This document shows, in pieces, positions 4,628 through 44,600 of a stretch of DNA of 64,000 nucleotides (its first letter is position 1; the number at the start of each line of letters is the position of its first letter). The stretch covers positions 62,001-126,000 of the forward strand of contig KZ537958.1 in the NCBI GenBank assembly GCA_000934665.2, in the 5' to 3' direction. The translations under genes were made by a program, and so were the position numbers. The stretch is from Catajapyx aquilonaris (lineage: Eukaryota). The notes below the pieces were generated by a model. It saw only the letters and a list, made by a program, of their open reading frames with translations, was not told the DNA's origin and searched no databases.

Positions 4628-4745
4628 ACGTTCCTGGTACTGTAGCACCTCGTCTTCCGGAACGCACCATCAACATGGAGGTTCGTCGTGAAGAAATGGC
4701 TGTCCTACCCTGTGTGGCACAAGGACATCCACTTCCTCAATATAA
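4628..4745 (+). CDS. Dscam2: Dscam exon: Ig3 N-terminal half
   Basis: ttttcag acceptor, gtaagt donor; (D)VPGTVAPRLPERTINMEVRREEMAVLPCVAQGHPLPQY. Confidence 0.9.
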
Positions 4746-13700: not shown

Positions 13701-16700
13701 TTCGGGTTTTTTTTCTGTTGGACCTATGTGCAAAAGAGGTCTGTGCTGGCGCCTTAATTCCTTGGAGGAAATGGCGATGGAATTGGGTAGTGGCCACCTG
13801 TGCCCCGGTCGGGATTTGGTCTCCGGTGCTTGGCATCAGGAGAGAAACCTTCCCTCCCCAGGGCGTGTCGAGGGGTTCCGCTAATTCCCTGGGCTTTGGG
13901 ATTAAAACTTCTCGCCTGATTCCACTTGCTGATCCCGGAATTCCAAGCAGGCCTCAAGTTGCACGGTCCGGGGTCTCAGCACACCATTTTGCGCCTGCAA
14001 AATGTTGGCTGCCTTTAGCTGTCTTTACGACTTCCACTGCACTGTACGTGCTGGAAGCAAGGATTGCACTGTACTGTACAGAAAATTTGCGACTCTCTGG
14101 TGCGAATGACAGAGAAGGAAAGAGGTTGCTTCCATGTTAATTTGACTGAATAATTTAATGATGCGCAAAAAGATATGGGAGTGCGTTGAATCTGGGAGTA
14201 GCACTCTTATGATATACAGTATTTTATCCAGTTGGATGGATCACTCGGATGGAAGGATTTTCTGCAATTTACACGCAGACTTTACTGTTTTTACAAGCGT
14301 GGGAATGACCGCCTGTAGGCATCGCATGAACTTTCCATGCATTAAATATTAATATTTACACATAATATGCTGATATGAGAATCTCCCTTAAAGAAAACAT
14401 TTCGAAATTAAAGTCTATTTTTGTTTTGTAATGAGCTTAATGTGGTCAAGCTATGCTTATCACAACACTGGTCATTTATGATATATCTCAGTGAATGTCG
14501 CACATTTGTGCCAAATTACCATATATTATTTGTCTTGGATGATAGGGATTAAGCAACCTCTCCCCGTCCACTCCACACCAGACACCAAAAGGCTTAAGCG
14601 ATCTGATTGGCGGAGCAGATAGTGGGGGGCACTGCTCCACCAATCAGATCGGTGGGTACAGTGCAATACAAAAGAAATGCTTGTTTGAAACACTACCGTG
14701 TATGACTTAACCACAGAGGTCGCAACATTCAGGAAATGCCTATTTTTTAAAAAGAAGTTAGGATGTGGGCACTGTCCCTCTTTTGCTTGGAGTATATACA
14801 AATTTTCCAAAAATAACTAGCTTCTTAGTTAAGCCTGCTTGCACAGTACTGCGACGTACTTCACCATATGTTTTAATCACCGAAAGAGGCTACACATCAA
14901 CCTAATGAAACTCCAACCTAATTCCCTGAGCCACACTGTACGCAAGCTTATCGCACAGAGTGTATACACATTGTCTCCTGTTCTGAATTCCAGGTTTGCC
15001 CTACATCCGCTCCATGCCCAAGATATCAGCGGTGGCCGAGGAGACCCTGGTAGTGACTTGCCCCGTGGCGGGATACCCCATCGAAACCATCCATTGGTAC
15101 CGAGGTAAGTTGCATTTTGCCCCGTCTCACCCCCTGCCGAGTAAGCTTCCTGGCTACATGGCGCCCGCCGCCTTATCATTAGCTCAACTTGGCTCCTTTG
15201 GCTTTTGATTTATGCGCTGCCATATAATTAGAGCGACTGCCCCCGCCGGGACTGTTGCCGAGGCCGTCCACTCTTACAATGGGAATTCGATAGGTAATTA
15301 ACGGCGCTTGTTGGAGCAGTCTCCACCCCCTTTTCCTATATACGAACACTCCAAAGGTTACTTCAAAACTATGATTTCCAAAAATTCATTCAGATTCCAC
15401 GATTTAATTTGCCAAAAATTTCCGCGAAGCTGTGTTATATGGATTGGGTGTGAGCTTGCCAGCATGTGTTTTAATTTTTCCACATGGCGTGAATAACGCG
15501 CAACCGGGTATTGTTCGGCTGCTGTGCAATTCGAGCGCGTTTTTTTTGCGCTAGATAGCTGCCGCGGGAGGTGCAAAAAAGTGTCAAAAGTTAGCTGCTG
15601 ATGAACATTGAGTTTAAGCTTATCTGCAATAGAGGCCCGTAATTTGAACTTTAATAATTGATAGACTTTATGCTACAAATTGGACGTTTTTTTTAGACAA
15701 AGCGCAATAATTAGTCAATAAAGGTGTAATTAAAAAGTATTCTAACGAGTAACCCACAATAGGGGGGGTATTTTTTCCCATCAGGTACTTTATAATTAGG
15801 CCACTGTTGGAAAAGAAAAAGAGAATGTGGTCCTTTGAAGTCCGAGCCACTTTACGATACCGCATTGAATATATTATCTCCAAGTTCGCCAAGTTTCTGC
15901 CCCGCTCAGGCATAAACTGCAAACACTGCTCCGACCCTTGAAGAACCTTCATTAAGCCTGATTCTCATTACCTAAGCACTTTCCTTTGACAGCCAAACCG
16001 CAATTGAGTGAGCTTGACAACCTCCCCCATATTTGGGTGGGGAGAGGCGGGGAGGGAGGGGAGGGGAAATTAGTATTACGGGCGTCTCAAAGAAGTCAAA
16101 GTCGAAGAGATATAAGCGTGGAAATTGAAAGGAATGGAGGGAGAATTATCACCGAGTTGCATCAAATATGTTTAGCAAATCAACGGAGCTGTGGAGAGGA
16201 ATTTATTTGAAAAGGAAAATCTGAATCGGTGGTTTTTGCTTTACAGTGCAAAATATTGTTCGGCTTGATCTTTCCAAGCGAGTATATAAGCTGCTGGGTG
16301 CATAAATTCAACAAGTTAGACGCTTTAATACGATGGAGGGATAGTACAAAAGCCTACCCCCGGTTAATGGGGGTATCGCGTTTTTTGATAATGGAAGTTT
16401 CAATGAAAATCGTCGCTGGAAAAGCAGCGTGATGTTAAAATATTATCTGACCGCCCCGAGGATTTTGTCCGATTTGATTTTATGACGTCGTTCATTTTTT
16501 AACATTATCGCACAGGATTTTTTTAAAAAAAAACACGAACTGGAGATGACAGTGTAGACAACAATGCATTGTTGTTAACATACTACGGGCTGCTACGGGT
16601 GTCTTTTTACATGTTATCCTGGAATTCCGAAAACAATCGACGCCGTGAGAAGTTTGACACCGTCCAAGTGCTCAAACATCGATCGTCATCTGACACATAC

Positions 16701-19700
16701 AGGGAGTTGCAGAATTTGGCGAATTTCTTCTCGTACTTAGGTTCTTTGCGGATTTATAGAGTGAAATTGCTTTATTTGATACTTGGAATTTTGGCTTCAA
16801 AAGGGACATAGGAGCACAAAGCCACCTCCGCTTTGTTTCATCCTGGCATGATGCAACCCAACTAACACGCTTAGGCATTAATAATATCTGCACGGGTCGC
16901 CTTACGCGCAGGATATGGGTTATGAGTAAAATTCAGCTAAATTCAATATAATTAGTTTCAAAATTTTGCCAGTCATAAATCAAATAAAAGGTTACATATG
17001 TGAACCTTCAGGGAATATCTTCTACAATATTTCATGAAAGTGACCCGCATGCAACAAGCATGTTCTGACACAACATAAAACATTTACAGGACGCAACTGA
17101 AACGACGATTACACCTTTTCACCACATTTATGGCCAGTAATTTTTAAAGCGGATTAAACCCGATTACAATCCCCCCCCCCACAACTTAACGACCTTTGGA
17201 ATATGGGTTTCTCTCAAAAAAGAAGTATCTCGCCTGCCTGCCAACTGCAGCAAAACCAGCCCCCGGTTTATGAAGAACCATATCCTGACCACATGAAATC
17301 CATATGACGCGCTTCACTGTACACTGCTTATCTGCCAGCGGTCCCCGCCTTTTATAGCCGCCATCGACTGAGTCCTCATCGCTGATCATGTTGATTGCAC
17401 TAGCTATGTTGTTGAAGTTTTGCCATTTGCACCGGTGAAAAAATTGTACGCCATTCCCCCCCAACCCGTTATTAATCCCGACATTCACAGTTTTAAATTA
17501 AAGCGTTTGATCTATGGAAACCCCGGTTGCAAGCGGGTTCTTTGTCCATGCCAGATACAGATTTTAATTAATTTTTTACTCATTAATTCCAAACTTTTTT
17601 ATATATCATTGCAGTCAGCTAACTCTGCAATTGCAACCCCTAGTTTGAAAATCAGTTTCATTGGATGGATAGGAAGTATTCCGGGTTGGAAGCGTTCACG
17701 GGTTATCATAGCCCCCGACACCTGCAAAGAATAGCAAGCGCCCGGAATGAGGCTCCAGGGAACCATAAAAAGCCTGCAGCGTGACAACGGCAACACTGCT
17801 CTTCTCCGCCAGTTCAGACTAAGTGAGCGAACGAGGCAATTTTACGCCACAGACAGCCCGCACCCCCTCGGAACAAATGTGGGCAATAATAACGGAATGA
17901 TGAAATAGGAGTCGCCATTTTTTTTTGCGTTCTCTGAGAGAGAAAACCGCTTCTTTAGGCTGGAGGTATTCATATATCCGGGCGCGTATTTTGTTTCCGG
18001 TTAAATAGGCGGTATTTCACTCAGGTTTTTGCTTGGAGACAGCTTCTTGCCAGCCGAAATTGCGAGGCTCGATTTGGCCCTGGAGATTGCCCCTAGGGCT
18101 GGGAAGTCAGGCGGATATGTATGGAGAGTTGGGATATTAACGTGTAAACCACATGAAAGTAGCTTTGTGGAGTGTACAATGTTGTCTTCGTGGTGTGATT
18201 ACGGGCAAAATTTAATAAGGAAGCTCTTGGGATGGTGCAAATACATTTACAGTCAAATTTGCGATTTGAAATGAATAATGGAAGTCAACAATCGGGTGTG
18301 TACTGTACTGCGGCCGGTTGCAAAATTAGCCGAAATATAATTGTGAACATTACTCTAGGGATGCCGCACAACTTCCTGTTAGGTGTTTCAATGTATTGTT
18401 GAAAATGTTTGCTAAAAAGAGAACTTGTCCGGTGCATAGTGTCGGATCTCATCACACATTAGTCGAGCAACCCTGCTCTATAGTACGTATAAATTTTTGA
18501 TGAATTGTGGCTGCCCCAAGTCTACGCCAGACTTGTTAGGCTATTTCTAGCGGGGTAAACCACATATACTCGTACAGTCAGACGTAAACAAGCTAAAATT
18601 GTAATTGACTCGGAAGAATTTTGGACGCTTGTTCTCTGAAATACACATGAAAGTTTAAATATTTTGCAATTTACACTGTCATATATGCAAAGGCATTTTA
18701 TTAATGACAAAGTCGCATCTAACGCACTGCAGATAGGTTGTTTTGAATGCTTTCTTTTTAGTCAGCTCACTTTTTCCGTCAATTGAGGCAAATAATTACG
18801 TGTAATAAATAAACAATTAATTAACTTTGTAAAAATTAATATTACGTTTAATGAGGAGAATTTTAAAGTGCTTTACCTAATTTTAAAAAAACAACATTGC
18901 GCAATTTTATTCCACAGACTTCCACACCAAGCTCGTCCATCCTCCAAGCAATTGTTTGCTACATAACTTGGTCCAACAACGACACGAACAACGCTGTACT
19001 CTCCCCATAACTCGTAATCTCCAGTTTAACAAGCTCGCTTGTAAATATCCTCCCTAGTTTCGAACGAGCAGCACCATTCCGCCTCTCCGCATTTGCAAAT
19101 TTTCTTCTGCCACGCACATTTTTATCACATAATTTCGACCAGCGCCAACTCTCCGATACTCGGACCTGACAAAAAAAAAGCCCAGTGTATATACATCCAA
19201 CCCCTGAAAATTTTTGAATGGTAGTGGGATGTGTCGCGGACCGAGCCCGTGTCTCCGTAGGGAATCTGCGGCTGGACGTCAGCCTGCATGCTGCATCAGC
19301 TGCCTTCACCAACCCCTGGATTAGCTGACTCGAATTGACTTCCTCATGAATACATTAGCGACCAGGACCCGGGTGTCACTGACCGACAATAAGCGCATGT
19401 CTAAGCGTTGGACGCCTCTTTTTTGTGTGTGAACTGTCTGATAGCCCGGAAAAGTAATGGCGGCTGCCAAGTCGTGCTTATCTGCGGATTGTGATCACAA
19501 AGGCGAGGAATGGTATTCTTTCATCCTGAAATCCCCTGTAGGAATGAGTGTGCTGATGCAGAAATGAAAAGAGCAGGAGTTGGACCCCTGTTGGGAACTG
19601 GATATATTGTGATTCAGAATACGTATAGTCCTATCATCATATTTTTCAACCAAAGAGTTGCGTCAACCATTCGTTTAGTTCGGGAAAAAAATACGCACTA

Positions 19701-22700
19701 CCCACATCATAACTTTCTCAAAAAGTGGGACCTTTGCCACTCCACTCCACCCCATACACCCTAAGCGACCTGATTGGTTGGAGCAGCCTATTCTCCACCA
19801 ATCAGAATGGTGGGTACAGTGCTGTCCATCAGATATCCTCTTTTGAAGCCCTACCGTGCATTGCTTAACCACAGAGGTCGTAATATTTAAGACGTGCATA
19901 TTTTTTTGAGAAGTTAGGATGTGGGTACTGTAGGTACGATAGAACAGTGTTTTCACTTTATTGGACTCGCACCGTAGCTTGATTAGTTTTAACGCACAGA
20001 TTAATTAATGGGGGCCGTCGAGCAGCTTGGGTGCATAATGGCCGCGGGGCACGCATAATTAAACTGTTGCCAGCAAACCCCTGCTTTCTTCCTGTGTGTT
20101 CAAAATATACTGCGAACCCCACCAAGAACCGACCCTATATAAGAGGCTGGTACCGAGTAAAAATAGTCAGAATCAAGAAGCACCCTTGGCTCATTGCAAT
20201 AACTCATCGGGGGCAGCAGTCATAAGCGTTGGGAAGCTCTAACGAAGACTTATGACGACAGGGAGCTATGGCCCTATCTCTATAGTCCTCTTCATCAGCG
20301 AATGCAGTGGCCCCCACTGATAAATCACGTGGGAAAGATGTAATTGCATTTGGCGCAGGTCAGGAAGTAAACAATAACAGGCAGAATCTGAAGTAACGGC
20401 CCTCTTGCGATTATTGCAACTCGGAGGTTGGAAAATTCAATTTACTTAAGCGGCTGTGCTTAAAAAAGATTAAAGTGTGGTAGGAGGGCGCTTAAGTGTA
20501 GGGGGCGGGGGGGTTGAGTAAGCGGTTTCTGGCGAGAAGCGGGTCGTACTTGCAATTATTCGGAAACCGCACTTGAATGCGGTTGCCCCATGGTAATTAA
20601 GGGTGACAATTTGGAGGGACTTCAGGGACCCAAAATACCCGGAGAAGAGGGGCGTGATCCGGTAGGAGAATAAGGGAAAGTAATGCTCGGGCCAGACCTA
20701 AATTGGTGCCGAAACCTGCTTTGAATCCACACCTTGTCCTGTGATAAAAAAAGAGGACGAATTTACTCCAGGTCTTTGTGGAAAAAAACTTCTACAGGAA
20801 ATACAGTACCTGGGAAATTTTTGCTGAACAGTTATACAGTTCATTCCAGTTATTTCTATCAAAATTTTCATTTGTGTGTGTATTTTTTTGCACATGTCAC
20901 CTGCTCCTTATTGGTGTCGTACTGTTGGCGGCTGTACATCTCCGTTCTTATTCCACCAGCGAATAATCCTATCCTTCCCGTTGCAAAATTCAGCGTCGGT
21001 TTTGCCTGGTTTTGCACCCGTCGCAATTGGAACCCCCCCCCCTCCGGATAACTCCCCGATAACGATGGCTGTGCGGGTGCAAGGGAATATCACATGTCGC
21101 TTGACAATGGTGCAACCCACCCTCCCAAAACCTCCCCGCCCAATGTCGACAGCCGTTGCATTTCACATGCAGTCAGTGCAGTCGGACTAACCGCAACACT
21201 CGATTGAATTCATCCGAGAGACAACGTGGCTGCAAATGCGCATTAATGTGTAGCCGAGAGCGAAAAGCAGCATCTCACCGCCAGACGAGCTTCATTATAT
21301 AAGCCTCGGCGCCGTCACAGCCAGCGAAATGACGGAAGAATACTGTAATTGAGTCTAACGATGTGTGACAGGCTAAATGTGTGCAAATTGGGAACTAATT
21401 CCATTACGAAAGGAGGAGGTGCACTATCGGTACGACATTAGCCCCGGAATATTCGCCGGATTATAAACTAGGTTGCATGCATCAAAAGAGTCTGCTGCCC
21501 CCCCCCCCCCCTCCCTGTATCGTATAATACTAACCTCCGATTTTACGAGCGACACTTTAGTCCGGACATGACGCGGGTTAGTCGTCAAGTGTTTAATGAG
21601 AGCAGTTGGAACTTTCTGAAGAGCTGGGGCTGAACCCCTGATTTGCAAACTTTTGCGAAGAATAAAACCGCGCTCGTGCTCAAAATGGAATCCTTGGTCC
21701 TCGTTGAATCCGCAATTCGTACTGACATCGGCGGTTATTTTATTACGAGTCGTACTTAGCACGAGGGTTTTTATTACCAAGATGTTCTGCATTTTTGGAG
21801 CGAGGTCCATTTGTCAAACACACTGGCCACGGGTTTTTTTAAAACAAAGGTTACCTTGAGCGGACGTCAATGCAAACGGCAGCTCATAAATTACATGGAA
21901 TTTGAGCTTGGTTCAAAAAAAAAAAAACCTTTCCGGAGACCTGAACGAGATGAAACATGGTATCCGCAACTCTTTTCGGTTGATTACCCACTCTGTGTTT
22001 GCAACTACGGTTGTTTATCTTCCAATTAGCCCTGAACGTATAAAACGCAAGCCCTGTGTAACTCATTTTAGGGGTGACGCTAATGAGCAAAGCATTTAAA
22101 AGCCTTGTGGGTTGCAGTTAATCTGTCAGAGGCAACATTATGCCCTGTTTGGAACTTCGGTGGTGAAACCGAGCTCTAATCCTATTAAGGTGCAATGACC
22201 CCTCCGACGCCCCGTATTATGCCGATGCCGTACTAATGTATCCGACGTCGTCGTTGCCTCTCAATCTGAATTCATACACCGTCATTAAACCGAATCTGGC
22301 GTTAGGATTCGGATCACGTCGGAGTAGTGTTCCCTTACCTTTTGGAGGCTCGCACTTGTTCGGGAGACCATTAGCCTAATGTTGGGGTAATGGCCACATC
22401 GGAATCCGATCCTGATGAGCAGATACAATGCGCTGTTCCCCAGGCACAAAAGAAGCTGTGTTAATTGAGCCGACAGAAACACGAGCATTGCAGGGTGAGT
22501 CAGAATCCAGTCGACAAAGGGTAGATTGGACCAAAAGGAGACTAAAATGTAGGGGTGAGAAATGTCGAAAGAGCAGACATTAGCGATGTTATGGTGCCCC
22601 TTAGACACACGCGGCCACCCGCTAAATTTACGTCTTTATCAGTTGGTCTTTCAACTTGTCCGTTCGCAGGAGACCGTCTTCTTCCGCTGAGTCGCAGGCA

Positions 22701-25700
22701 GACTGTCTTCCCCAACGGTACGATGGTCATCGACAAGGTTCAGCGTAGTCAGGATAGCGGTACATACACTTGTAGTGCCAGCAACAAGCAGGGTCGGACT
22801 GCATCGGGCAGCGTGGAAGTCAGCGTCATGGGTAGGTGTTTCGTTGTTGTGGCTATTCAGATATGCACATGTCAGGCTTCAGTGTCCTTAATGTCGCTGC
22901 AGGTGGGTGCACAAAGTTATTACACAGTTGAAAGACCTTGTGCAACCGTTTCGTGCGACTTTTTTGCAGGATTTTATCACCAGGCGTAGAAATTATTGTT
23001 GTAATAAAATGATCCAAATATTGCAAGGGATGTAGACTGAAAGTTTATAGTTCACGTGCAGAAAAATTGAAAGTATAGCGTATATTTTCGCATATTACAC
23101 TGACCTAAAATTCACGCATGAATCACGTGATACGAACTACAAACTATTTTGTGATCAGGGTTGGTGTTGCATAATTTATTTTGCTGAATAATTGGTCCAG
23201 GTATGCAGTATTTGGATCGCGTAAATTTACGACAGAACATAAATCATTGATAAGAACTGCAATAATTAGAACCTTGCATTAGATGATCAAACAGTATAGT
23301 TTAGGATTGCACAAAATGGTTATAATGCACTTAGTACAAAATTGTTCGTACAATGCTTGCAATAATTTGTACCTCTTGTCTCTTACAGTTCCGGTATTAT
23401 CATTCTATCCATGTGCTTCATAGAATTAAGCTTATTAAATCTCTCTTGCAGAGTGTCACCGGATTAGAACGTCTCATTATAATCTCTCTGTAGATTAACA
23501 GTATATCAATTCTAATTCCATTAAATTCTCTCTTGTTGAAATATATTTAATCCTACTGCATGTGCAATAATCGGATAGTGTCATGCAGGTTTGGTGAAAC
23601 GCAAAATCACTTACATTAGTTTCATCAAACCCGTAACTGTAGTTCAATATCAAGCTAACTCTGCACCACGATTGAAAAGGTTGTGTAAAAATCAATTTTA
23701 ATTTAGAGTATTATATGAATTTTTATAAGATTAGTGCTGCAATATGTAAATACATGCCATGTTTCAATCCTGGTTGCATGCGCATTTTAAAAATCACACA
23801 TGTCCTCATTTCACTTGTAGCTGAGTGACATAAAAATGTTGGTGAGCCGTGAGAGGGATGCCCTGTAACCATGTATGCTGACTCTGGCAACGTTTTCTAC
23901 TCTTTCAGTCCCGCCAAAGCTAAACCCTTTCAGTTTTCGGAGTGACTTACATTTAGGGGAGCGCGTGGGACTCCAGTGCATGGTCAGTAAGGGGGACAGT
24001 CCCCTGGTGATGGAGTGGTCCAAGGACGGGCATCCAGTGTCCGTGCTGCCGGACGTGGTAGTCCGTGGGCTGGACGAATACACCAGCATTCTATCCATAC
24101 CTGCCCTGAAGCAAAGCCACAATGGCAATTACACTTGCACCGCTCGCAATGGGGCGGCCTCAACCTCTTACTCCGCACGACTGTCCGTCAACGGTACGAA
24201 GGTGTCCAGAGGGTCGTTGGTAGAACAGCCAAGCGAGCACAGGCCCGGAAAATGGCGATCCGTATTGCGGGGGTTCAACAGGAAGAAATGTTGCACGAAC
24301 CAACCGGTTTATAATACACCCAGAAAGGTCCCTTGGTGCAACCTTACTTCTACCCGTCTTTTTAAATAAATTAAACAGAGAAAAAAACGGGAATGTTTTT
24401 TTTAAAAAAAAAACCCTCTCAAAAGGGACGCCTTTTCCATTCCGTCGGCTCGCAGTATCTTCACTTTTTTTCCTCCTCGTTGGTCGTTTTCCAAGTCTTT
24501 TCGTTCCCTTTTTAAACAACTTTGGTATACTTCCTTCTATCTTTTCAGTACCTCCTCTGCTCTCGCCCATCTCCTTTGGAGACCTTTCAGAGGGGGAGCG
24601 GGTTCAAGTAACATGTAGTGTGAAACGTGGGGACTTGCCTCTGAATATCACCTGGCTGAAGGACTCCAAACTGATTTCCCTGCATGAACTAGACATCAAC
24701 TTTAGAACCCTTGATGGCTACTCTAGCATTTTAACTATCCCTAGAGTTACGTCTAGACACAGTGGCAACTACACTTGTGTAGCCCACAATCCCGCCAAGG
24801 AGGTCAAGTACACGGCGGAACTGGTGGTCAGTGGTAAAGTAGCCCAACTTCTCTCATCTTTTGCCCTTACTATTACGAAACTATGCTTGCTGTGATGTGG
24901 TAGTACAACATGTTGCATGTCACGGAATGAGATCCTTTCCCACCCACCACCCACCAACCCACCACCGAGGCCTTCAAATCTGCGTCATTATGGGCACGGA
25001 ATCATCAGTCATGCAGGATCAAGCGAGAATGTCTCCACCCACCTCCTCTTGTGCACACTTTGCACCTCCATCATGACGTTAATGGCAATAATTATTGGCC
25101 AACAGCTGTACAGCTCTGTGTTGATGCATCAGTATCGCATAGAGCCGGCTTCCGCGCTTATCAATAATAATTATTATGGCCGTTGCAGGTAATTAGAGTC
25201 CAAGTGGACCGTAAATCCAGTGTAGCCCTGGCAGTTTGCATACATCACTCTGGGCCCATGGGTGCAAACGCCCAAAGTTGCGGGCCAAGCAGGTGTATGC
25301 ACGGAGTTTGATTGATGCCGATACCTGCGGCGAAAAGTGTCGTCACCGTGAGGCAAAATTAACACCTGTCAACATTGCTTGGACAATAATTTTTTTTTTT
25401 CGGGGAGGCATTACTTGATTGCATCCGAGCTTTTACCACACTGCATTTGTTGCATGCTGCATGACCGCACATGATATATAAAGGCGCACACTTTTGGAGG
25501 CCTCGTAGCCTGGTAATTGCATCCACCTTCACTCCCCATAAGAAAGTTGGAACTTACAAAAACCAGTTTTTTACAATTTATTATTGTGATTATTCTTCTT
25601 TCGATGCCCCTTCTTGGGTTTCGTTAGTCCGGTCCATGCACTGATGTGAACGCAAAATGCCCCTGCCTTCAAATCAGGTAAACACGTTTGATTTTGAACC

Positions 25701-28700
25701 TGTTTATTCTCATTCATTCCACTTGCATACAGACTTGACCTGCCAGCCTGGTTTTCCACTGGAACCTAGCAGCAGTATGTGACCTGTCTTGTTTCTTCGG
25801 CCTTTTCCTTGTACTACTTTTTTTTCCTCTCTTCCTCCTGCTCACGGAGAACACGATACATGCACTCTTTATTACGAGAAAGGGATGTGTACTCACAGCT
25901 TCTTAGCACAAATTGACTGACTGACTGATTTGTATGCTGCCGTTTGTCTCACGAGATGGCTTTATTCAGTATGGCTTGCACTGACAAAGCCCCCCTCCAT
26001 CCACCTTAATCAACTTGGAATAATTTCACCCGCATCAAACACATTATCCAGGCCGCTGAATGCAACACAAAAATGATTCATCAGGCTTTGTGCTTTTATA
26101 TTCACTAGTATCTGATCGATTCGGCACATTCTGCTATGCTGGATTTGAATGTGTGTAACTCATTATCCCTGCAATGGTATTAACATACATAATCGAGTGC
26201 CGTTAAAACAGAAAAAAAGCGCAGCTCTGTAGTTTACTGCACCAAAAAGCCTAGTTCAACTTTCAGGGGGAATATTTCCCCCAGTACATTCTCATTTTTA
26301 TGGGCCAAGAGGGGGAGGGGGTAGAAAAAAACATGAGCATCCAGTCATAACATAGCTGCGCAAATAATGCTACTTTTGGGAATGACATGCACCTCTGCAC
26401 CTGAATGATGTGTGGGTTAATGGATAGCATTTGCAATTGTCACAGTTCCCCCCTCGTGGTTGGTGGAGCCGAAGGATCAGAACGTCAAAGTGGGTCACCC
26501 AGCCGTTTTGGACTGCCAGGTGGACGGCTTTCCAAAACCTATCATTGCATGGAAAAAGGCATATGGTGAGTCCTTACCGTTTAGCAATTTCCAGCAGTTC
26601 AACTTATAATAACCCGTTACAAAGTAGGTCTTCACGTCACAATTCATGGAGAGGGATAAAAAAAAGAGAGAGATAAATGAAAGGATGCCGCAGAATTTAC
26701 TTTTTGCAGAAACCGGCTCCATCTGCTTGATCCTCAGAGTCAGTGGGAAGAAGACAGATAGGTTTTAATAAGGAGGCGTTGGAAGTTGCCTCAGTAAATC
26801 ACTTGCGATTAGAGCTCCCGAAATCTCTCCTCCGCGCTTTGGGAGGGCGGGGGGGAAGTGTTAGAAAAAAAAAAATCCCCCGCCGCTAAAGAAACTTAAT
26901 TGACCAGAAATTTATTTGCACTCGGCTTCTACCCGGGGAAAAACCGTAGGCAACCAGCCGGGTCAATACCACGACCTCCGCTCCCAAAACTCTCGCGTCA
27001 AGCTTCTAAGCAACGGGTCTCTCTGGTTGCAACGAGTCAGCAAGGAAGACGAAGGCCAATACTTGTGCGAGGCCGCCAATGGCATCGGTGTCGGAGTCAG
27101 CACCGTCGTCACTCTCACCGTCAATGGTGCGTGCCACTCTTTGTTACTACATAACGTATTGCTGACTTACCTTTTCTCGTGTGTGAGCAGCTCCTGCGCA
27201 GTTTGTGGTGAGATCTAAGAAGGAGCTGGTTAAACGAGGATCAGCTGCACATTTGAACTGCCGATCTACTGGTGATCTGCCAATCACGATCACCTGGAAG
27301 AAGGAAGGGGTCAGGCTTGAACCAGCCTTGTTTCCTAGGTCTGTTTTCTATTAAAATTATTCGTTGAAGTTCATCCTGACTATTCAAGGTAACCCTCCAG
27401 TCAGCTCTGAGCAACGGGTTGCAATGCTACAGGGTAATTTTACAGCCTTGGAACTACGCAACATGTGGCTCAGAACTGATTGGAGGGTTGCTCTGAATAG
27501 TTAGGATAAATGTGTAAGATTCGCATTGTTTGATGGTTGCTAAAAGTGGCAACAGTGGGTAGAATGGCAACGGTGTCCTTTTTGCGTCTAATGACCCTCA
27601 TCCTTTTCCCCACAAAAGCCATGCATATCCGGGCCAAAGCCATGGATTCTCGTCTCCTAAAATGGCCCGTGTAAATGGATCTGCCGCTATTTTGAGGCAC
27701 ATTCCAGCATTATTAATTCACAGATATGTGGTAAAAGAGACGCCTATGCAAGGAGAACTAATGTCTGAGCTCATCGTAAGCGCCACTAAAAAGGAAGATA
27801 GTGGAACCTTCGCCTGTTTGGCCACCAACGCCTATGGTCATGCTCAGATGACGATACATCTTGTAGTTCAAGGTTAGTCGACACTTTTAAAATCCGCACT
27901 AATTAGAGCATAGATTGTTGAAGTTCCTTTTTTTCCTAATTTAACACTATGGCTTCATCATGGTAGCCACCAAGGACATGTTCCGAACTTTTCCTTCCAG
28001 CTACTATGCCATTAATTAGCAAACTAAAGAGCTTGCTTTAAGCATCTATCTCCCTTTATGCTTTTTTTTTTCAGATGCTCCGACTTTTCCGACCAATCTT
28101 CGCGTTCTGGATCAGACGAGTCGTTCCGTTCGAATTTCGTGGACGCAGCCTCAGGATGGGAATAGCCCCATTACCAAGTACCTTGTTCGCTTCAAAGCCA
28201 ACTCAGGTAATGGAAGCTCATGTTTCTCCGCTTTTGCATGGAACCAGGATGGGAGGAGAGAGAGAAAAAAAAGGGCAGCCAGTTACCCCCGGAGGGGCAT
28301 GGCCCTCTCGGATTCCCAGATACCCAGTACGAAGAGCATTGTTCAGTTCAATTAGCGGATTTTCAAGTGCACTTGTTTGGTCAAAACCTGACCAAATTAT
28401 ATGTCAACATTCACGCGTGCTGATGAGCGTTAGTTCAGCTAATGAACTAGTATAATCCAATTAATTTGTTTCCATTCGCGGATGGGATAAACAGCTGCCA
28501 TTGTGATTATACAGAAACTCTCGTGTCAGGTTGAAGTCAATTTTGTGTAAGAAGTGCAATGACATGTCTTTTGGCAGGTTAATGTACTGTTTACATACAC
28601 ACGTGTGCAGTAACACGCTTACTGCTAACCGGTAATCAATTTATACGTGAGGTTGATGAACACTCTCCAGCCTGTTCCAATTATTTGACAGGCATAAAAT

Positions 28701-31700
28701 GCGCGCAGTGTGCATTCATAGTTGTGGAGGGGGGAAATTAGGTTCGGGGGCTGATTGCACATTAATTGCGACATTTGTAGTGCACACAGTAATTAACGTA
28801 AATTTTATCCAAATTCTGTGCGCTATTTATTAATCACGGACCCTCTTTATTAAAATGTCGTTTGGGAGAAACTGCGTTCGGTCGGGTCGAAAGCTTTCAG
28901 AGCCGAACCTGTTTTGCCTGCAACATTGTTGGCCTTTGGCAACCTAGTTTTCAACCGCCATTTTTTGCTCATTACACGGGCAAAGACATGCACAGGAACA
29001 GGAGAAGCGATTTTAATTATGCAGTAGTAATTAGTAACAATTCAGGTATTAATTTTGCCACAATTTGTCAAACTGCTCCACCGAGCGCTTATTACAGTCT
29101 GTTTATGTTGGATGAAATATGTGTTATTATTCCGCATTCCTTTTTTTGATATTCAAATACTGTTGACTCCGGATATAACAGACTCGAAATGCTGGACCCG
29201 CCATACTTCCATAAGTCCATGAGTATTTATACTCCTGATATAACAGACTCGTTTTCAACTCACCTCCGCTACAACAGACCATTTTTGGCCCCTCGCCTCT
29301 GTGGGAAAATATGTTGTTTTTTAATTATTCAACATCCTTTCCCACGCGTAGGAAGGCAGAGAAAACTGGAGCAGGAGTGAATTTCGCATCTGTCATTGAT
29401 CTAAGCTACTCAAAATCATACTTTTCTGGTATATTTGGCAACAAGGGGATGCGGATTTTTCTAGTCTTGCATAATTTCCGCGTGAGGTAATTTTGCAAAT
29501 TTGCGAATAACTTCATTAATGTATGTGGTAGTGGGCATTATAAGCATAATATGAAAAGCAGAAAACTTCGTGCATTTGTGGCAAAATTGGCAATTTGGCT
29601 ATAACAGACTTTTTCCAAGGTCCCATAAAGTATTGTTATATCCGGAGTCAACTGTAAATTTTGTGCGCATGATTATTGTATACGCAACCATTCATGTTTT
29701 AGGAATAGTGACATTCTTTTTTTTCCATCTCAATCTGGGGTAGAAAATTGACTCCATAGTTGGTACTATATCAAGTGCAAAAAATAGTCCCAACAACTCA
29801 TATTGAGCTTTAAACAGCTCCACTCAAAATAATTTACAACTTCCAGGCATATAAAAGTGATCGCACTAATTACTGAAGGACATCACCCAGCTTGAATACT
29901 GCCTCGTCAGCCGATAACAATAATTCTCAACGCAAGGAATGAAGGCGTGATGAAATGCGAGTTGAATCTATAAAAGGGGGGGCACCAACGAACGTAGCAC
30001 ACCGAGCAATCTCATTCCTACCGCGCCGCATCTGAATGCCGTCGCGCGTTATCTCTGATGAGGTTTCATCACGTGCAAATTACGCCGGCCCTAATTAGGA
30101 CGCCGTTTCGAATATCGCGCATTGAGCCCGGCTCTAACTGACGTACTTGGCGTTTTGACGTTATCGACGTTGGCAGGTCGCAGGGCCTTGGGTTGGTCCA
30201 AACTCCGCATCTCACAGCCACTAATCAAAGATGTAACATCCGCTAATCCAAGACCGGCACTTTGGGAGGACCCCGCGAGGCCAAGTCAAACATTCAGAGG
30301 CAGAAAACCGGGTTTGTTACGGAAACCAGTGTTGTTATGCACATTCATTAGGGGAGTTAACGCGGCCGAGACGACACACTTTGCATGTGAGGAGTGTAAA
30401 TGAGCCGATGCTGGGGCCTATCTGCGGTTTCATCTGGGAGGAAGTGCATTACTGAATAGTTGCGACGAAATATTTACGAGCCAGGGTTGGGCTGTAAACA
30501 AACCGCCCAACACAAAAGCTGGGCGAGATATTTTTTGCAGGGACACAATAGCTTCACCCGCTTGGGGACATCGCAGCATGTAATGTTCCTCCACTTATCA
30601 GCAAAGATGGGATAATTAGGTGTAATTGCCTATCGTCACTAGGACGGAGTTAAACCTTCCAAGATTAAGGATCGATAAGCTCTATTGATAGCGAGGCCAC
30701 AATGGTACACCCTGGAACATCGCACTCGATTAGATTTTCGAATCATTTGAAAGAGCTTGCTCACTGCTCTCTAAAATGTGGTTTTAAGCAGCTAGCTAAT
30801 ATTCCATTGAGATTTACGCAAACAGACCACCAGTGGACCTTGGTGGACCTTTCCTTTCACCTCCCCACGGGTGCTTGCAAGTACATATCTTCATTGATTG
30901 GCAGATACTTGGCACGAACTGAACCGCGAGGCCAACGTGGAAGGCTCCCAGACCGCAGCAGTACTGAGCAAGCTGCATCCAGCCACCATGTACCACATCA
31001 AAGTGTTTGCCCAGAACGAAATGGGCCTGAGCGAGGCCAGCGAGGTTTTGCAGGTGAGCACCACCCATCTGCAAAATAGGGCTAGTTCCTACTCCTCGTC
31101 TCTATTCCTTCAGGTCATGACGGACTCCGAGGCTCCCACAGGACCGCCGCAGAATATTCACGTGGAAGCCAAGGGCTCCCAAGAGCTGCTTGTCACTTGG
31201 GATCCTCCAGAAATTCAGCACTGGAACGGAGAGATCTTGGGATATTACGTCGGATTCCGGGAGCATAGGTTGGTCTCTTCACCGCCTCCTGATTTATTAC
31301 CACCAGTGGTTTTTTTTTTCGTCTTCTCTCCTTTCCCTTTTTTTCGGGAGAGGAAAAGCCCGAGGTAAGTCTGGAAGTTGGGATCTTGGACCTGGTGGCG
31401 TATAGGCGGGATTGGCAGAGTGGAAGAGCTAAATGCGTTTTGCGAGATCGATTTGGGACAACTCGATTGTTCTCGGAATTGTCTGAGCAGTCAATGCACG
31501 AGTTTTGGGCAAGTCCAAGGGAGCGGAATCCGAAACCCTAGGAGTTTTCAACTTGCCGATGAGGGATCGGTGCCAGCACGAATATTAGGACCACTGACTG
31601 TGCCAACACCGTACTTTTTGAAGGCTCATTTAATCGTGAACGAAAAAAATGGGTTAAAGTAACCAGAACTGGTTGAGCTAAATTAGTAACCAGCAGGGTA

Positions 31701-34700
31701 GCACAACCAATACGTACAACTAAATGTTATTTCGGTTCGCTCAACTAAATATTTTTTGAGTGTTCAATTTTGATGTATGGTGTGCGGGCTAAGGGCAGAT
31801 TAGAGCTTATCTCTAATGTAATCAAGCCATTAATTCCAACAACCGGATTAATTAAAAGGTGGACTTCCCCGCCTGTTGTTGACCAGTACCTGCAATGCCA
31901 ACTGATTTTCACTCGCGTTTCTCCCTGCAGGGAATCCCGATCGGCCAATTCGTACAACTTCAGCACTGTCAATATTCAGGGAAACACCAAAGGCGAGTGG
32001 AAACTGCAAGACCTACGAAAGTTCGCCAAATATGGAGTCGTCCTCCAGGCCTTTAACAGCAAAGGAACGGGTCCATTGTCCGAGGAGGTGGTGGCCCAAA
32101 CTTTGGAGGACGGTGAGTTTCTCGTGTGTTTTCCTGCCCGCAACTACTTTTTATTGCTTTTCCTCCAGAGGTAACGACCGTGCCAGGAGCTACTGTCTGC
32201 GGTGCTAAAATTTACTGCATTATCGCACGAATCTGGGCAAAAGCCACTACCTTAATGAAACTAGGAGGCCGCACTCTGTACCTGCCAGACAGACAAAGGG
32301 GGGGGGGGGNGGGGGGGCGCCAAATAATTTTTAATTGATTAGTAACGATTAGTTTTAGAAGCAACAAAAGTTGCTGGCGTCTTCTCAGAACTTTTGGCAG
32401 GTTTTAGGGCTCTTCGATGCTGGTCCCAGAAAAAGGGCGGAACTGCTGTTTGTCCTTTGCAGCCGTAAAAGAGTCTATAAAACGGAAGCATGGCCTTAAA
32501 TTACGGGGCGATTTCAATCCGGCTCGGAAAAGTATCACTGCACTTTTTGGCCATTGGTAGGATGAAAAGGGTGGGGCACAGCAAAAAAAAAAGAGCAAAA
32601 GATCTTTGGTTGATTGCAGTGCATAGACCTATCATTAGATTTGGGGTCGATTCCACCCGTCCCCTGAAATTAGTCACTGTTTCGGTATGTACAATAGCTG
32701 AATCCGGAAAGAATTGCGTGTCTGGCGCGTACCATGCAGGTCATGCGCCCAATTCAGCATCATTATGGTAATGATGTTGGATAGAAACCTCGGATGGAAT
32801 AAAGATGAGCGCCTATTTTTCTGCCTCTCTATCAATTCGTGTACTTCGTTGTAGTTCCGGGAGCCCCTCCAGATGACATCAGATGCACGGCCTTATCCGC
32901 TCAAAGCCTGCAAGTGAGTTGGCAGCCGCCGCCAGAATCGCTAGTGCATGGAGTCATCCAGGGCTACAAAGTCTACTATGAAACCGCTGAAGAATGGTAT
33001 GGTGGGTACTTTGGTGAAAGACACTTCAGACACTCCCTCTTTGTTACAACCTGAAGGTGTATCAACTGTCACGAGTTGCTACCCCTTCCGGTTACAGCGA
33101 TGCATGATTAATCACGCTTAATCAGGTCTGTCCAATGTGTCACCTGGTGACTCCAGGTGAAACATTTATAAAACAGCCGGGCAGTAAACGCAAAGAGTTA
33201 ATCCTCTCACCCATTATTGAACACATTGCATCACTTTTGCACTTAAATCGTATTTCATGGCCTTCGTCGACTGTAAATTTATGAGCGCGCCTCGCATTTC
33301 ACTTGATTAAGCGACAAATACCAGCATGTAGTCCGGGACAGCTCATCGATCTATACCATCCGAACGCGATTTGTTTTCGGCCAGTGACCGACCTGAATGC
33401 GGTTGATTGCTAAAACTAGTTAATTTCTCATCTGTGACCAACGGTCAACAGTCATTCGCATTACCAGTCTTTATTAGTTCATGACCACGGGGGGTGGTCC
33501 AGTAAATCCGATCGTAAATCAGACCCATTTTTTTATCGAACACCACTCCTGTGATGCTGCCAGAGGCGGGTTGTCCAAAGTTTGCCTCCGCCAGTCGATA
33601 TCTTGGTTCTGCACCTGTTATTGATAGGCTAAACTTGAAGCTACTCTCGTTAACGTCCTCCTGATTTATGACGCTGTCAACTCCCCTGCCTCCCTGTACC
33701 TTCCTTTGTGATCATGAATGCTGAATTCTCACGATTTTGCAACGCTCTGCTACGTTTTTCGCATGATAGATTTCCTTTTATTCAGAGCAGCAGAGAAACA
33801 AGCATACATGAGATGTTTCCGAGACCTTCACGTGCGATGATTGAAAGCAAGGAATTTCCATTCCAGATAGGATCGAGTACGAAACCAAGATGACCACGGC
33901 GCTGACCACTGTCCTGCACGGCCTGCACAAGTACAGCAATTACAGCGTGCAAGTACTGGCCTTCACCAGGGTTGGAGACGGCGTGTCCAGTACACCATAT
34001 TCCTGCAGGACCGACGAAGATGGTAAAATTCACGCTCCAAATAGGGTGGCCAGATGTCCTTCTCTTGAGCAATGCTCTGTCCTTCGTCCTTCGCTACCTC
34101 AAGAAGGACGTTGATTTGTCCTTCTTTTGGAGGACAGTCTAAAATAATACGTCAATTTCCTGACCTAGTACTAGAACAGCGGAAAGTTTGGGATCTGTAT
34201 CCCACAATAACCATTATTGGACACGGCTAATGTAGGACAGATATACAAAAATAGGCGTCCCTTCATTGTTATAATATATTATATCTGTTCCCGCAAAAGT
34301 TAAAATTCATTTCTTATTACTTTTACAGGATGAATGCATGTAATACAATACAGTACGTTTAGAAAATTCATTTTAAAATGCCACAGAATTGTATTTTTTA
34401 TTTATAGTGCCATTTGACAAATTAATTCTCAGTACGGTAGGCCTACATATACAGGGTGTTCCAAGTATTTGGGTCACTTCTTGATAACTGATATTGCCCG
34501 ATAGCACTTATCAAGAAGTGACCAAAATACTTTGAACACCCTGTATATTTTCTACACCATTTTATATACGTCAACTCACCATAAAACATGCTGGAATGAG
34601 GTTAAAATTCTATGCTGAAGAATTCAGTCATTAGTGTGTTAAATACTATAATTTGGTAACTTGAATATTTCGGTTATCATGAAGTAAAAAAGGCATGTTC

Positions 34701-35926
34701 ATTATATACGGTATGTTGTAGGCCTATATACAGTACTATATATTCATACCAGCTGTGTCCTTCATTTTGGAGATTTGGAAATGGCCAACCTAGCTCCAAA
34801 GTTGGGTTAGGTTAACTTGGGGCCATCCTAAGTTTTGCTAGAAACGGCCTCATGTAAACGGGCATATTAATTAACTCATGTTTTGCAAAAGCTTTCCTGG
34901 TCATGTACCTGTACTTGTACTGATGGTTCAAAAGCGTCCGAGATGAGGCGCCGTAATGAAGCTTCCAGATGAGACGCATCGTGCTCGGTGCAGCCATCTG
35001 GAGCTTGGAATTCAAGCGGCGAATTTCAAAAGCGGGGTATTGATTACGCGGAAATAGCAGCTGAGGAATTATGCCGAGAGAAAGCCGGAAAAGGAGAGGA
35101 ATTTGCATAAAATGTGCAGGTCGCCGCTGACGGCTGTGTATTCGAGCGTGAAGTTTGCACGTTGAATGTTAATGCCCTCTTTCCAGCAATTATGTAAAAC
35201 TCTCCCCAGCTTTTAATGTGTCTCGGAGTTTCGTAAGCGTAACTGCACCGCTCCAATGCATGTCTGTAGTTCCAGAGGCGCCGGCGGACATTAAGGCGGT
35301 GGTGAAGTCGGCCGAAAGTATTCTGGTGACCTGGCTTCTTCCAAGGAGGCCCAACGGTGTACTGGTCAAATTCAACCTGTACGTGAGGGTCCTTGAAGGA
35401 GGAAGGGAGGTGGACACCTTCAGAAGGAGTCATCCGGCTACTCAGTTGGAGTACGAAGCAGCGGGTCTCAAGAAGAGACAGACCTACGAGTTTTGGGTCA
35501 CTGCCTTCACTAAAGTGGGGGAAGGACAGAGCACAAAGGTCATATCGAGCTCTCCGTCCAATAAAGGTCAGCCACCTTCTATATGGACAATGGCAGATGT
35601 TTAATTCAAAGATGTTTCTCCACCAAGTTCCGGCAGCCATTTCGTCGTTTGGAGGTCCCGTAATGGCGCCATGGAAGACTGACGTGTCGCTGCGTTGCCA
35701 GACTGTGGGCGTCCCTACTCCTGAGCGTCACTGGCAGCAAAATGGGACCCGTCTGCGCGAGCACACCCGCATCCAGCTCATGCCCGATGGAACCTTGCTT
35801 TTACGAATGGTGCAGAGGGCCGATGCAGCAGCCTATTCATGCTTTGTTCGTAACGAACATGGACAAGATCACATTTCCTATCGTCTCCTCGTGCAAGGTA
35901 ATCATGGCGTGCTTAGGGCAGAAGGC

Positions 35927-35988
<62 letters not shown>

Positions 35989-44197: not shown

Positions 44198-44203
44198 AAT
44201 AAA
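44198..44203 (+). promoter_or_regulatory. Candidate Dscam polyadenylation signal AATAAA
   Basis: AATAAA about 1.26 kb after the stop codon, followed by T/GT-rich sequence (gatttttcctttgtgg). Confidence 0.5.
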
Positions 44204-44434
44204 ATATGGAATCAGATTTTACTGATATAGGCTCGATTTTTCCTTTGTGGACATTCAGTATTAATTTGTTTTTTAATTGCTATATGTGTTCATAGAATCG
44301 TGATGCATTTGAGCCCTATAGTAGTGTGTCGTTAGTATTTTTTAAACAACAAAGCATTGCAATAGCTTAATATGCTTTTACTTTATTATCCTTTTATTAT
44401 TTTACAAGCTTTTTATAAATAACTTCAGTTTCAC

Positions 44435-44480
44435 GTTGTTGTTGTTATTATTATTATTACTATTGTTATTATTATTATTA

Positions 44481-44517
<37 letters not shown>

Positions 44518-44537
44518 TGTTATTATTATTATTACTA

Positions 44538-44569
<32 letters not shown>

Positions 44570-44600
44570 GTTATTATTATTATTACTATTATTATTATTG
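44435..44600. repeat. Imperfect (TTA/TTG)n microsatellite
   Basis: direct reading. Confidence 0.97.

What the first reader, a model, noticed from the sequence alone, without database searches (positions are those of the whole stretch)
23909..24833. Tandem duplicated Ig7 exon pair: putative mutually exclusive isoform switch
Seen: two complete Ig7 exons of identical length (285 nt) and phase (1-1) between single-copy Ig6 and Ig8 exons, roughly 45-50% identical at protein level by manual alignment, both intact. Known: Ig7 is a homophilic-specificity domain of Dscams, and Drosophila Dscam2 uses two mutually exclusive Ig7 exons (10A/10B). Inference: this gene makes two recognition isoforms. Because 285 is divisible by 3, NMD cannot remove double-inclusion products, so an active exclusion mechanism is needed.
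Basis: partly seen in the sequence, partly recalled or inferred. Interest (0 to 1): 0.75.

Follow-up and report, generated by a model that had tools for sequence, protein, structure and literature searches.

The report
Conserved alternative Ig7 exon pair, Dscam2-like gene
Two neighbouring exons that each encode the seventh immunoglobulin domain of a Dscam2-like neuronal adhesion gene are an ancient, conserved A/B pair also found in winged insects, so this is an ordinary new example of a known two-isoform switch.

Summary
Exons at 23909-24193 (A) and 24549-24833 (B) are each 285 nt, AG/GT-bounded, phase 1-1, open, and encode complete I-set Ig domains that are 47% identical. There is no third copy nearby.

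The gene is a Dscam2-like adhesion gene on the + strand. Exon A is 62-69% identical to the first Ig7 copy of its insect orthologues and exon B 53-66% to the second; cross-comparisons give 41-48%. A lineage-specific duplication is rejected (p-AU 0.0005). Myriapod duplicates fall outside both types.

The gene belongs to a paralogue group separate from the one holding Diptera. It branches outside the six winged-insect orthologues sampled.

Mutually exclusive use is inferred, not shown. The three orthologue models labelled as isoforms carry A only or B only, but many other public models carry both copies.

Sequence excludes steric, U12 and NMD-based exclusion. Intron RNA pairing (9 of 94 shuffles as good) and Muscleblind-type YGCY motifs are not above chance. 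Regulation by trans-acting splicing factors is the best guess.

This is a new member of a known kind, of modest interest.

The parts
4645..42396 (+). Part of the Dscam2-like gene held in the window, from about Ig3 to the cytoplasmic tail. Ig1-2 were not detected.
   Evidence: There are 23 colinear tblastn HSPs to Anabrus P0004 (aa 245-1897) between 4645 and 41202. The last Ischnura P0010 HSP ends at 42396.
22670..22831 (+). Upstream constitutive exon encoding the second half of Ig6. Its 5' splice site is TGG|gtaggt.
   Evidence: AG at 22668-9 and GT at 22832-3. The translation is open and ends ...SGSVEVSVM. tblastn hits at 22663-22830 are 55-69% identical to insect orthologues.
22832..23908 (+). 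Intron upstream of exon A (1077 nt).
   Evidence: No Ig7-like frame was found in it. YGCY count is 8 against a shuffle mean of 11.0.
23909..24193 (+). Ig7 exon A (first-copy type), 285 nt, phase 1-1. Its 5' splice site is ACG|gtacga.
   Evidence: It is 62-69% identical to the first Ig7 copies of group I insect genes. It sits with the first copies in the trees.
24194..24548 (+). Intron between A and B (355 nt), with a pyrimidine-rich 3' end (Y 0.74 over the last 50 nt).
   Evidence: It is too long for steric exclusion, by recalled spliceosome spacing. It holds one YGCY motif.
24549..24833 (+). Ig7 exon B (second-copy type), 285 nt, phase 1-1. Its 5' splice site is GTG|gtaaag.
   Evidence: It is 53-66% identical to the second Ig7 copies of group I insect genes. 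It lies inside the group I second-copy clade, support 98/86.
24834..26445 (+). Intron downstream of exon B (1612 nt), with a weak pyrimidine tract before the Ig8 exon (Y 0.46 over the last 50 nt).
26446..26565 (+). Downstream constitutive exon encoding the first part of Ig8.
   Evidence: AG at 26444-5 and GT at 26566-7. The translation begins PPSWLVEPKD.... tblastn identity to insect orthologues is 54-61%.

Best explanation
The region holds an old, conserved pair of alternative exons, each encoding the whole seventh Ig domain of a Dscam2-like neuronal adhesion receptor.

Each mature mRNA most likely carries A or B, never neither. That gives two receptor isoforms that differ only in Ig7, the domain that sets isoform-specific homophilic recognition in Drosophila Dscam2 (established knowledge: abstract and passages of PMC6357765).

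The pair arose before this lineage separated from winged insects, and both members have been kept by purifying selection since.

How one exon is excluded is inferred by elimination. The 355-nt A-B intron rules out steric interference. All six splice sites are U2-type GT-AG, which rules out U2/U12 incompatibility. The 285-nt length rules out frame-based NMD.

The choice is therefore most likely made by cell-type-specific trans-acting splicing repressors and activators, as Muscleblind does for Drosophila Dscam2 10A/10B. Intron RNA pairing is a weaker alternative.

Shown here: exon anatomy, intactness, type-for-type orthology, and the age of the pair relative to winged insects.

Inferred: mutually exclusive use, homophilic specificity, and the trans-factor mechanism.
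For: Anatomy and intactness.

Orthology by type:
- Window A against first copies is 62-69% identical, and against second copies 41-48%.
- Window B against second copies is 53-66%, and against first copies 42-48%.
- Within the gene's own orthologue group (10 first copies, 9 second copies): mean A-A 69.2%, B-B 69.6%, A-B 45.5%. Eleven columns carry type-specific conserved residues and 31 are shared.
- Both exons are more conserved than the protein as a whole, which is about 50-52% identical over 1520-1727 aligned residues.

Trees:
- WIN_B lies inside the group I second-copy clade (UFBoot 98 / SH-aLRT 86).
- WIN_A groups with the odonate first copies and one unnamed first copy (96/89).
- A tree with WIN_A and WIN_B together is 57.9 lnL worse, p-AU 0.0005.

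Alternative use in orthologues: 3 of 3 group I models labelled 'isoform X' carry a single copy. Ischnura X2 and Zootermopsis X3 carry A and Neocloeon X2 carries B, all at the same position in the protein.

Exclusion of mechanisms: intron length and splice-site sequences.

Drosophila precedent: Muscleblind represses 10A and selects 10B (passages of PMC6357765).
Against: No transcript evidence for this organism was available, so exclusivity is untested.

Public models of relatives often contain both copies in tandem:
- In group I: Anabrus P0004, Blattella P0005, Gryllus P0006, Schistocerca P0209, Timema P0228, and fragments P0007 and P0008.
- In the dipteran-containing group II: 7 'isoform X' models carry both copies (Tenebrio, Leptopilina, Hylaeus, Vespa mandarinia, Harmonia, Bradysia, Aphidius) against 15 with one copy.
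- I could not tell whether these rest on reads or on ab initio read-through.

For the trans-factor mechanism, YGCY motifs are not enriched in any of the five segments. At least as many motifs occur in 132-298 of 300 shuffles. The Drosophila paper itself says site positions gave no obvious rule.
Confidence: 0.8

Rival explanations
1. Exclusion is enforced by competing intron RNA base-pairing of the docking/selector kind. An element just downstream of exon A (24241-24273) would pair with one about 140 nt upstream of the Ig8 exon (26277-26307). This would loop out exon B and bring A's 5' splice site to the Ig8 3' splice site.
For: This is the best windowed duplex between the A-B intron and the downstream intron, at -33.7 kcal/mol, and its geometry fits a loop-out. 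None of the first 30 shuffles reached it. Docking/selector pairing is the established mechanism in Dscam1 clusters (titles and abstracts listed).
Against: In a second run, 9 of 64 shuffles reached -33.7 or better, the best at -40.0. Together that is 9 of 94, which is not above chance.

The other intron pairs were also ordinary: upstream x middle 4 of 30, upstream x downstream 1 of 8. Whole-intron duplex energies were not distinguishable from shuffles either (which timed out before the third pair's shuffles).

Of the 15 papers listed out of the 26 that held at least two of the three terms Dscam2, docking site and selector sequence, none mentions Dscam2. No related genomic DNA was available to test covariation.
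Confidence: 0.15
2. Both exons are normally included together, or inclusion is not exclusive. That would give a receptor with two tandem Ig7 domains (11 Ig) beside the single-copy forms.
For: Double inclusion stays in frame. Many public models of relatives hold both copies, including 7 'isoform X' models in group II and 5 full or partial group I models.
Against: The 3 of 3 group I 'isoform X' models, and 15 group II ones, hold one copy at the same position.

The short unnamed or ab initio models (P0007, P0008, P0163, P0164, P0170) read straight through the intron after '...VN' into 'GN...'. That shows read-through prediction rather than splicing.

Type-specific conservation of two alternative versions of one domain over this time span is what alternative use predicts.

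In Drosophila Dscam2 the two exons are mutually exclusive (PMC6357765).
Confidence: 0.07
3. One of the two exons is an unused duplicate that merely still looks intact.
For: None beyond the absence of expression data. Exon A has the weaker 5' splice site (ACG|gtacga).
Against: Both are open and have canonical splice sites. Both are more conserved against their own type in winged insects (mean 65.8% for A, 59.5% for B) than the protein as a whole. An unused exon would not keep this over such a divergence.
Confidence: 0.03

Closest known systems
Drosophila Dscam2 exons 10A/10B (isoforms A and B; splice choice regulated by Muscleblind)
   Same: Both have two tandem exons, each encoding the whole Ig7 domain, between single Ig6 and Ig8 exons. 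In Drosophila they are mutually exclusive and give two binding specificities (PMC6357765 abstract and passages; PMC3364881 passages). The first and second copies of the dipteran-containing group sit on the same sides of the Ig7 tree as window A and B (support 87/88 and 84/69).
   Different: The window gene is in another paralogue group by the whole-protein tree. Shared origin of the two pairs is not statistically secured (p-AU 0.051 and 0.207). No Drosophila sequence was retrieved, so 10A/10B were not compared directly. No YGCY enrichment was found here.
Group I 'Dscam2'-named genes of winged insects (Ischnura, Ladona, Neocloeon, Anabrus, Schistocerca, Gryllus, Blattella, Zootermopsis, Timema)
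   Same: These are the direct orthologues. The whole-protein clade has support 1.0. The order is the same, A-type then B-type. Identity is 62-69% for A and 53-66% for B.
   Different: The window sequence branches outside the six winged-insect members in that tree. Its own protein is not in the searched collections; the best identity was 69%.
Dscam1 exon 9 hypervariable cluster
   Same: It also encodes whole Ig7 domains by tandem alternative exons. In one search, 42 of 45 sampled array copies from nine read-through models form one clade (SH-aLRT 95) on the second-copy side of the tree.
   Different: It has dozens of variants rather than two. Choice is stochastic and uses docking/selector RNA pairing (abstracts listed), for which no support was found here.
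Myriapod (Strigamia, Chamberlinius) Dscam genes with duplicated Ig7 exons
   Same: These genes have tandem Ig7 copies. Mutually exclusive Ig7 splicing is reported for at least one Strigamia gene (passage of PMC5465998).
   Different: All myriapod copies fall outside both the first-copy and the second-copy clades of insects. They are therefore separate duplications, not orthologues of A or B.
Honey bee AbsCAM
   Same: A Dscam-family member that I recall as having Ig7A and Ig7B forms. Only its reference entry and mentions were seen.
   Different: It was not compared here. The paper is not in the held library, and the Ig7A/B statement is recalled.

Membership tests
Dscam family (Ig and FN3 ectodomain, TM, cytoplasmic tail) | Colinear match along a full-length Dscam protein | tested here: met
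   There are 23 colinear HSPs covering aa 245-1897 of Anabrus P0004. About 50-52% identity was found over 1520-1727 aligned residues to five group I proteins. Ig1-2 were not found in the window.
Dscam2-type Ig7 alternative exon pair | Two tandem exons, each encoding the complete Ig7, with equal length and phase | tested here: met
   Both are 285 nt, phase 1-1, and match I-set positions 11-90 of 90.
Dscam2-type Ig7 alternative exon pair | Each exon orthologous to one member of the insect pair | tested here: met
   Joint monophyly of A and B is rejected, p-AU 0.0005.
Dscam2-type Ig7 alternative exon pair | The pair is the same pair as in the Dscam2 orthologue group (the one with Diptera) | tested here: inconclusive
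   First copies of groups I, II and III lie on one side of a branch with support 87/88. Trees holding each group's copies together are not rejected (p-AU 0.051 for group I, 0.207 for group II). The group III test did not finish.
Dscam2 orthologue group | Gene falls inside the clade that holds the dipteran two-copy genes | tested here: not met
   In the whole-protein tree without Ig7 columns, the window groups with group I (support 1.0), apart from group II, which holds Bradysia, Clunio and Hermetia. That group II is true Dscam2 is an inference. It rests on the fact that only Dscam2 has two Ig7 exons in Drosophila.
Dscam2-type Ig7 alternative exon pair | Mutually exclusive inclusion in mRNA | not testable with these tools
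   No transcript data are available. The indirect evidence is that 3 of 3 group I 'isoform X' models hold one copy.
Dscam2-type Ig7 alternative exon pair | Isoform-specific homophilic binding | not testable with these tools
   Eleven type-specific conserved columns were found, but no binding test was done.
Muscleblind-regulated exon choice | Clusters of YGCY motifs around the regulated exons | tested here: not met
   Counts are at or below shuffle means in all five segments. The motif itself is recalled; the paper text holds no 'YGCY'.
Mutually exclusive exons by competing RNA pairing (docking/selector) | Intron complementarity beyond chance | tested here: not met
   For the best duplex (-33.7 kcal/mol), 9 of 94 shuffles are as good or better. 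Covariation is not testable because no related DNA was available.
Mutually exclusive exons by steric hindrance | Intron between the exons too short for two spliceosomes | tested here: not met
   The A-B intron is 355 nt. The length threshold is recalled.
Mutually exclusive exons by U2/U12 incompatibility | One U12-type splice-site pair | tested here: not met
   The 5' splice sites are gtaggt, gtacga and gtaaag, and all 3' sites are AG with pyrimidine tracts. The U12 consensus is recalled.
Mutually exclusive exons enforced by NMD | Double inclusion or double skipping shifts the frame | tested here: not met
   285 = 3 x 95, and all junctions stay in frame.

The most novel reading that the evidence does not exclude
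The A/B Ig7 pair is older than the split of the pancrustacean Dscam-like paralogues. On this reading a two-exon switch was already present in their common ancestor and several paralogue groups, including this one, still keep it. The hypervariable exon 9 array of Dscam1 would then have grown out of the B-type member. The window gene, from a lineage branching outside winged insects, would preserve the ancestral two-state condition.
Probability: 0.2. Interest if true: 0.55.

Novelty: new member of a known kind. Interest (0 to 1): 0.3.

Why it matters
- It dates the two-state Ig7 switch to before this lineage parted from winged insects. It also shows the switch in a Dscam-like paralogue other than the one that holds the fly-type two-copy genes.
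- It is a case where frame, sterics and spliceosome type cannot enforce exclusivity. Comparing its introns with those of orthologues could therefore expose the cis-elements that do.
- Practically, it flags that many public gene models of this family join both Ig7 exons into an 11-Ig protein. That is probably an annotation artefact.

Tried and rejected
- Frames: searches used the wrong frame and were corrected. The ORF list was too long, and the list was not useful for a spliced gene.
- Inverted repeats across 22832-26445 gave only short, imperfect pairs.
- Whole-intron duplex folding gave global pairings no better than shuffles: 36 of 40 and 5 of 40 shuffles were as good.
- The windowed duplex search gave one candidate that failed on more shuffles.
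- YGCY counts showed no enrichment.
- The bacterial-type promoter and terminator scan is irrelevant for a eukaryotic gene and sat at shuffle level.
- Rfam and tRNA scans found nothing.
- Pfam on 16 large window ORFs matched 1 of 16, an Ig exon at 9151-9651, and 0 of 9 beyond 42.4 kb.
The unnamed representatives therefore stayed unnamed, among them P0129, P0137, P0163, P0164 and P0170, beside P0007 and P0013, which came unnamed.
- The representative search ranked mostly many-Ig proteins, so I re-scored single domains myself.
- The AU test for group III did not finish.
- No complex or structure prediction was run, because a pass would not have separated A from B.
- No Drosophila Dscam2, Dscam3 or Dscam4 sequence was obtained.
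- The supplements of PMC3364881 were not read.
Full report
**1. What is there**

The sequence between 22500 and 26800 shows two exons on the + strand, A at 23909-24193 and B at 24549-24833.
- Each is 285 nt, preceded by AG and followed by GT.
- Each reads as 2 nt + 94 codons + 1 nt, which is phase 1-1. Both frames are open. My first translations were one base out of frame.
- The upstream exon (22670-22831) ends an Ig domain. The downstream exon (26446-26565) starts the next.
- All junction combinations, including A>B and Ig6>Ig8, stay in frame.
- The two products are 47% identical (45 of 95, E 7e-28). At DNA level 144 of 288 aligned columns match.
- Both are full I-set domains. Both align to residues 619-710 or 623-709 of the solved eight-Ig Dscam1 fragment 3dmk, which I read as its seventh Ig domain from its position in the chain.
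- A profile of the pair finds nothing else above 14 bits in 20-30 kb on either strand. There are exactly two copies, and the flanking Ig exons are single.

**2. The gene**

Full-length insect proteins named Dscam2 align colinearly along 4645-42396 on the + strand. There are 23 HSPs covering aa 245-1897 of the Anabrus protein. The first two Ig domains were not found in the window. The organism's own protein is not in the searched collections; the best identity to either exon is 69%.

**3. Orthology of each exon**

Several public models of insect relatives contain two Ig7 copies in tandem, and others contain one.
- Window A is 62-69% identical to the first copy in Anabrus, Schistocerca, Blattella, Gryllus, Ischnura, Zootermopsis and an unnamed ENA fragment. 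It is 41-48% identical to the second copy.
- Window B is 53-66% identical to the second copy in Anabrus, Schistocerca, Blattella, Gryllus, Ladona, Neocloeon and the ENA fragment. It is 42-48% identical to the first copy.
- Across this orthologue group (10 first and 9 second copies, window included), mean identity is 69.2% among first copies, 69.6% among second copies and 45.5% between types. Eleven columns carry type-specific conserved residues and 31 are shared.
- Both exons are better conserved than the protein overall, which is about 50-52% identical. Both have therefore been under purifying selection.

**4. Ig7 trees**

- A quick tree of 75 Ig7 domains taken from the representative search and a named tree of 147 domains place WIN_A with first copies and WIN_B with second copies.
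- In a careful tree of 82 rows, WIN_B is inside the second-copy clade of its orthologue group (UFBoot 98 / SH-aLRT 86). WIN_A groups with the odonate first copies and one unnamed first copy (96/89). The first-copy set as a whole has 72/78.
- Holding WIN_A and WIN_B together costs 57.9 log-likelihood units, p-AU 0.0005. A duplication private to this lineage is rejected.
- All Strigamia and Chamberlinius copies fall outside both clades. The myriapod duplicates are therefore separate events.

There is ancient orthology with the insect pair and no orthology with the myriapod duplicates.

**5. Which Dscam gene**

NCBI names nearly all of these proteins 'Dscam2', so names do not separate the paralogues.
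- I built a whole-protein tree without the Ig7 columns (53 rows, 1340 columns, FastTree). It puts the window in a clade (support 1.0) with Neocloeon, Ischnura, Schistocerca, Anabrus, Zootermopsis and Blattella, which I call group I. The window is drawn as sister to those six; the support for that inner split was not printed.
- A separate clade, group II, holds Diptera, Coleoptera, Hymenoptera and Hemiptera. It also holds second genes from Schistocerca, Timema and Blattella, so groups I and II are paralogues.
- Dipteran group II genes carry two Ig7 copies. In Drosophila only Dscam2 has two alternative Ig7 exons (passages of PMC3364881 and PMC5465998). Group II is therefore probably true Dscam2, and the window gene is a Dscam2-like paralogue.
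- The tree position suggests, by inference only, an organism outside the winged insects.

**6. Age of the pair relative to the paralogues**

In the careful Ig7 tree the first copies of groups I, II, III and two further genes lie on one side of a branch (87/88), and the second copies group together (84/69). This favours a pair older than the paralogue split. However, trees that keep each group's copies together are not rejected: p-AU 0.051 for group I and 0.207 for group II. The group III test did not finish. I treat this as open.

**7. Is the pair used alternatively?**

This cannot be tested here, because no transcript data are available.

Indirect support: the three group I models labelled 'isoform X' each hold one copy at the same position. 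Ischnura and Zootermopsis hold A, and Neocloeon holds B. In group II, 15 such models hold one copy: 13 of the first type, and 2 Hermetia models of the second type.

Against: 7 group II 'isoform X' models and 5 group I models hold both copies.

The short ab initio models read through the intron itself, from '...VN' into 'GN...'. At least part of this is therefore prediction artefact. I could not check read support.

**8. How exclusion could work**

- Steric interference is excluded by the 355-nt intron.
- U2/U12 incompatibility is excluded by the splice-site sequences (gtaggt, gtacga, gtaaag; all AG acceptors).
- NMD is excluded by 285 = 3 x 95. The length and consensus thresholds are recalled knowledge.
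- RNA pairing: inverted repeats are short and imperfect, and whole-intron duplexes are no better than shuffles.
- The best windowed duplex, 24241-24273 with 26277-26307 at -33.7 kcal/mol, has the right geometry to loop out exon B. It is nevertheless matched or beaten by 9 of 94 dinucleotide shuffles (0 of 30, 9 of 64).
- Muscleblind-type YGCY motifs are not enriched in either exon or any of the three introns.
- The Drosophila study shows Muscleblind represses 10A and selects 10B. It also says binding-site positions gave no obvious rule and that other regulators are likely (passages of PMC6357765).
- Of the 15 papers listed out of the 26 that held at least two of the terms Dscam2, docking site and selector sequence, none mentions Dscam2.

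By elimination I favour trans-acting, cell-type-specific regulators, at roughly even odds within the overall reading. RNA pairing stands at about 0.15.

Possibly relevant asymmetries: exon A has the weaker donor, exon B has the stronger pyrimidine tract (Y 0.74 against 0.64), and the Ig8 acceptor is weak (Y 0.46).

**9. Comparison with what is known, and novelty**

The thing works like Drosophila Dscam2 10A/10B and is a direct orthologue of pairs present, though mostly unremarked, in public models of winged insects.
- It fails membership of the Dscam2 orthologue clade as I could define it.
- It meets the structural definition of the Dscam2-type Ig7 pair.
- In the held library I found no paper describing Ig7 pairs in Dscam-like paralogues other than Dscam2. 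The two reviews I read in passages say that in Drosophila only Dscam2 has them. Subscription papers such as Brites 2013 and Funada 2007 are not in the library and were not seen.
- I rate this a new member of a known kind, with modest interest.

**10. Side result**

I added 45 domains from nine read-through models of Dscam1-type arrays (quick tree).
- Forty-two form one clade (SH-aLRT 95). It sits with the second copies and the myriapod copies on one side of a branch (88).
- The first copies lie on the other side.
- The three remaining rows are low-scoring domains of another kind.

This hints that the B type is the 'generic' Ig7 lineage from which the arrays grew. It is the basis of the novel case, at low probability.

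**Left unchecked**
- Transcripts of the source organism.
- Related genomic DNA.
- Drosophila and Apis reference sequences.
- The supplementary trees of PMC3364881.

Noticed in passing
relatives P0004, P0005, P0006, P0209, P0228, P0215, P0217, P0218, P0219, P0225, P0239, P0241 (not window): Many public gene models of Dscam2-like genes join both Ig7 exons into one protein about 95-100 residues longer. For example, Vespa mandarinia X1 has 2040 aa against 1940 aa for Vespa crabro X2. Short ab initio models even translate the intron between the exons. This is probably an annotation artefact that in-frame alternative exons invite.
   Followed up: partly
relatives P0015, P0180, P0182-P0186, P0188, P0196 (not window): Ig7 copies from Dscam1-type hypervariable arrays group together: 42 of 45 sampled form one clade (SH-aLRT 95). 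They lie on the second-copy (B-type) side of the tree, away from all first copies (quick tree only).
   Followed up: partly
window 23909-24193 versus 24549-24833: The two exons differ in composition. Exon A has GC 0.572 and GC3 0.67; exon B has GC 0.498 and GC3 0.564.
   Followed up: no
window 24396-24411: A T8/A10 run forms a perfect 12-nt palindrome in the A-B intron, just before a very pyrimidine-rich stretch that leads to exon B.
   Followed up: no
window 39278-39348: A short intron of about 71 nt (GAA|gtgagt ... cctag|G) follows the hydrophobic, probably transmembrane, segment of the gene.
   Followed up: partly
window 39556-39671; 2843-2939: There are two minisatellites. One is a 15-nt unit x 7.7 just downstream of the exon ending near 39506. 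The other is an 18-nt unit x 5.4 upstream of the first detected exon.
   Followed up: no
window 44001-46000 and 44445-44599: This is the most AT-rich stretch of the window (GC 0.339). It holds a (TTA)n array of about 52 copies. Further trinucleotide arrays lie at 35927-35988 and 62804-62871.
   Followed up: no
window 42400-64000: Downstream of the gene, none of the 9 largest ORFs tested has a Pfam match. No tRNA or Rfam family was found anywhere in the window. What this 21 kb holds is unknown.
   Followed up: partly
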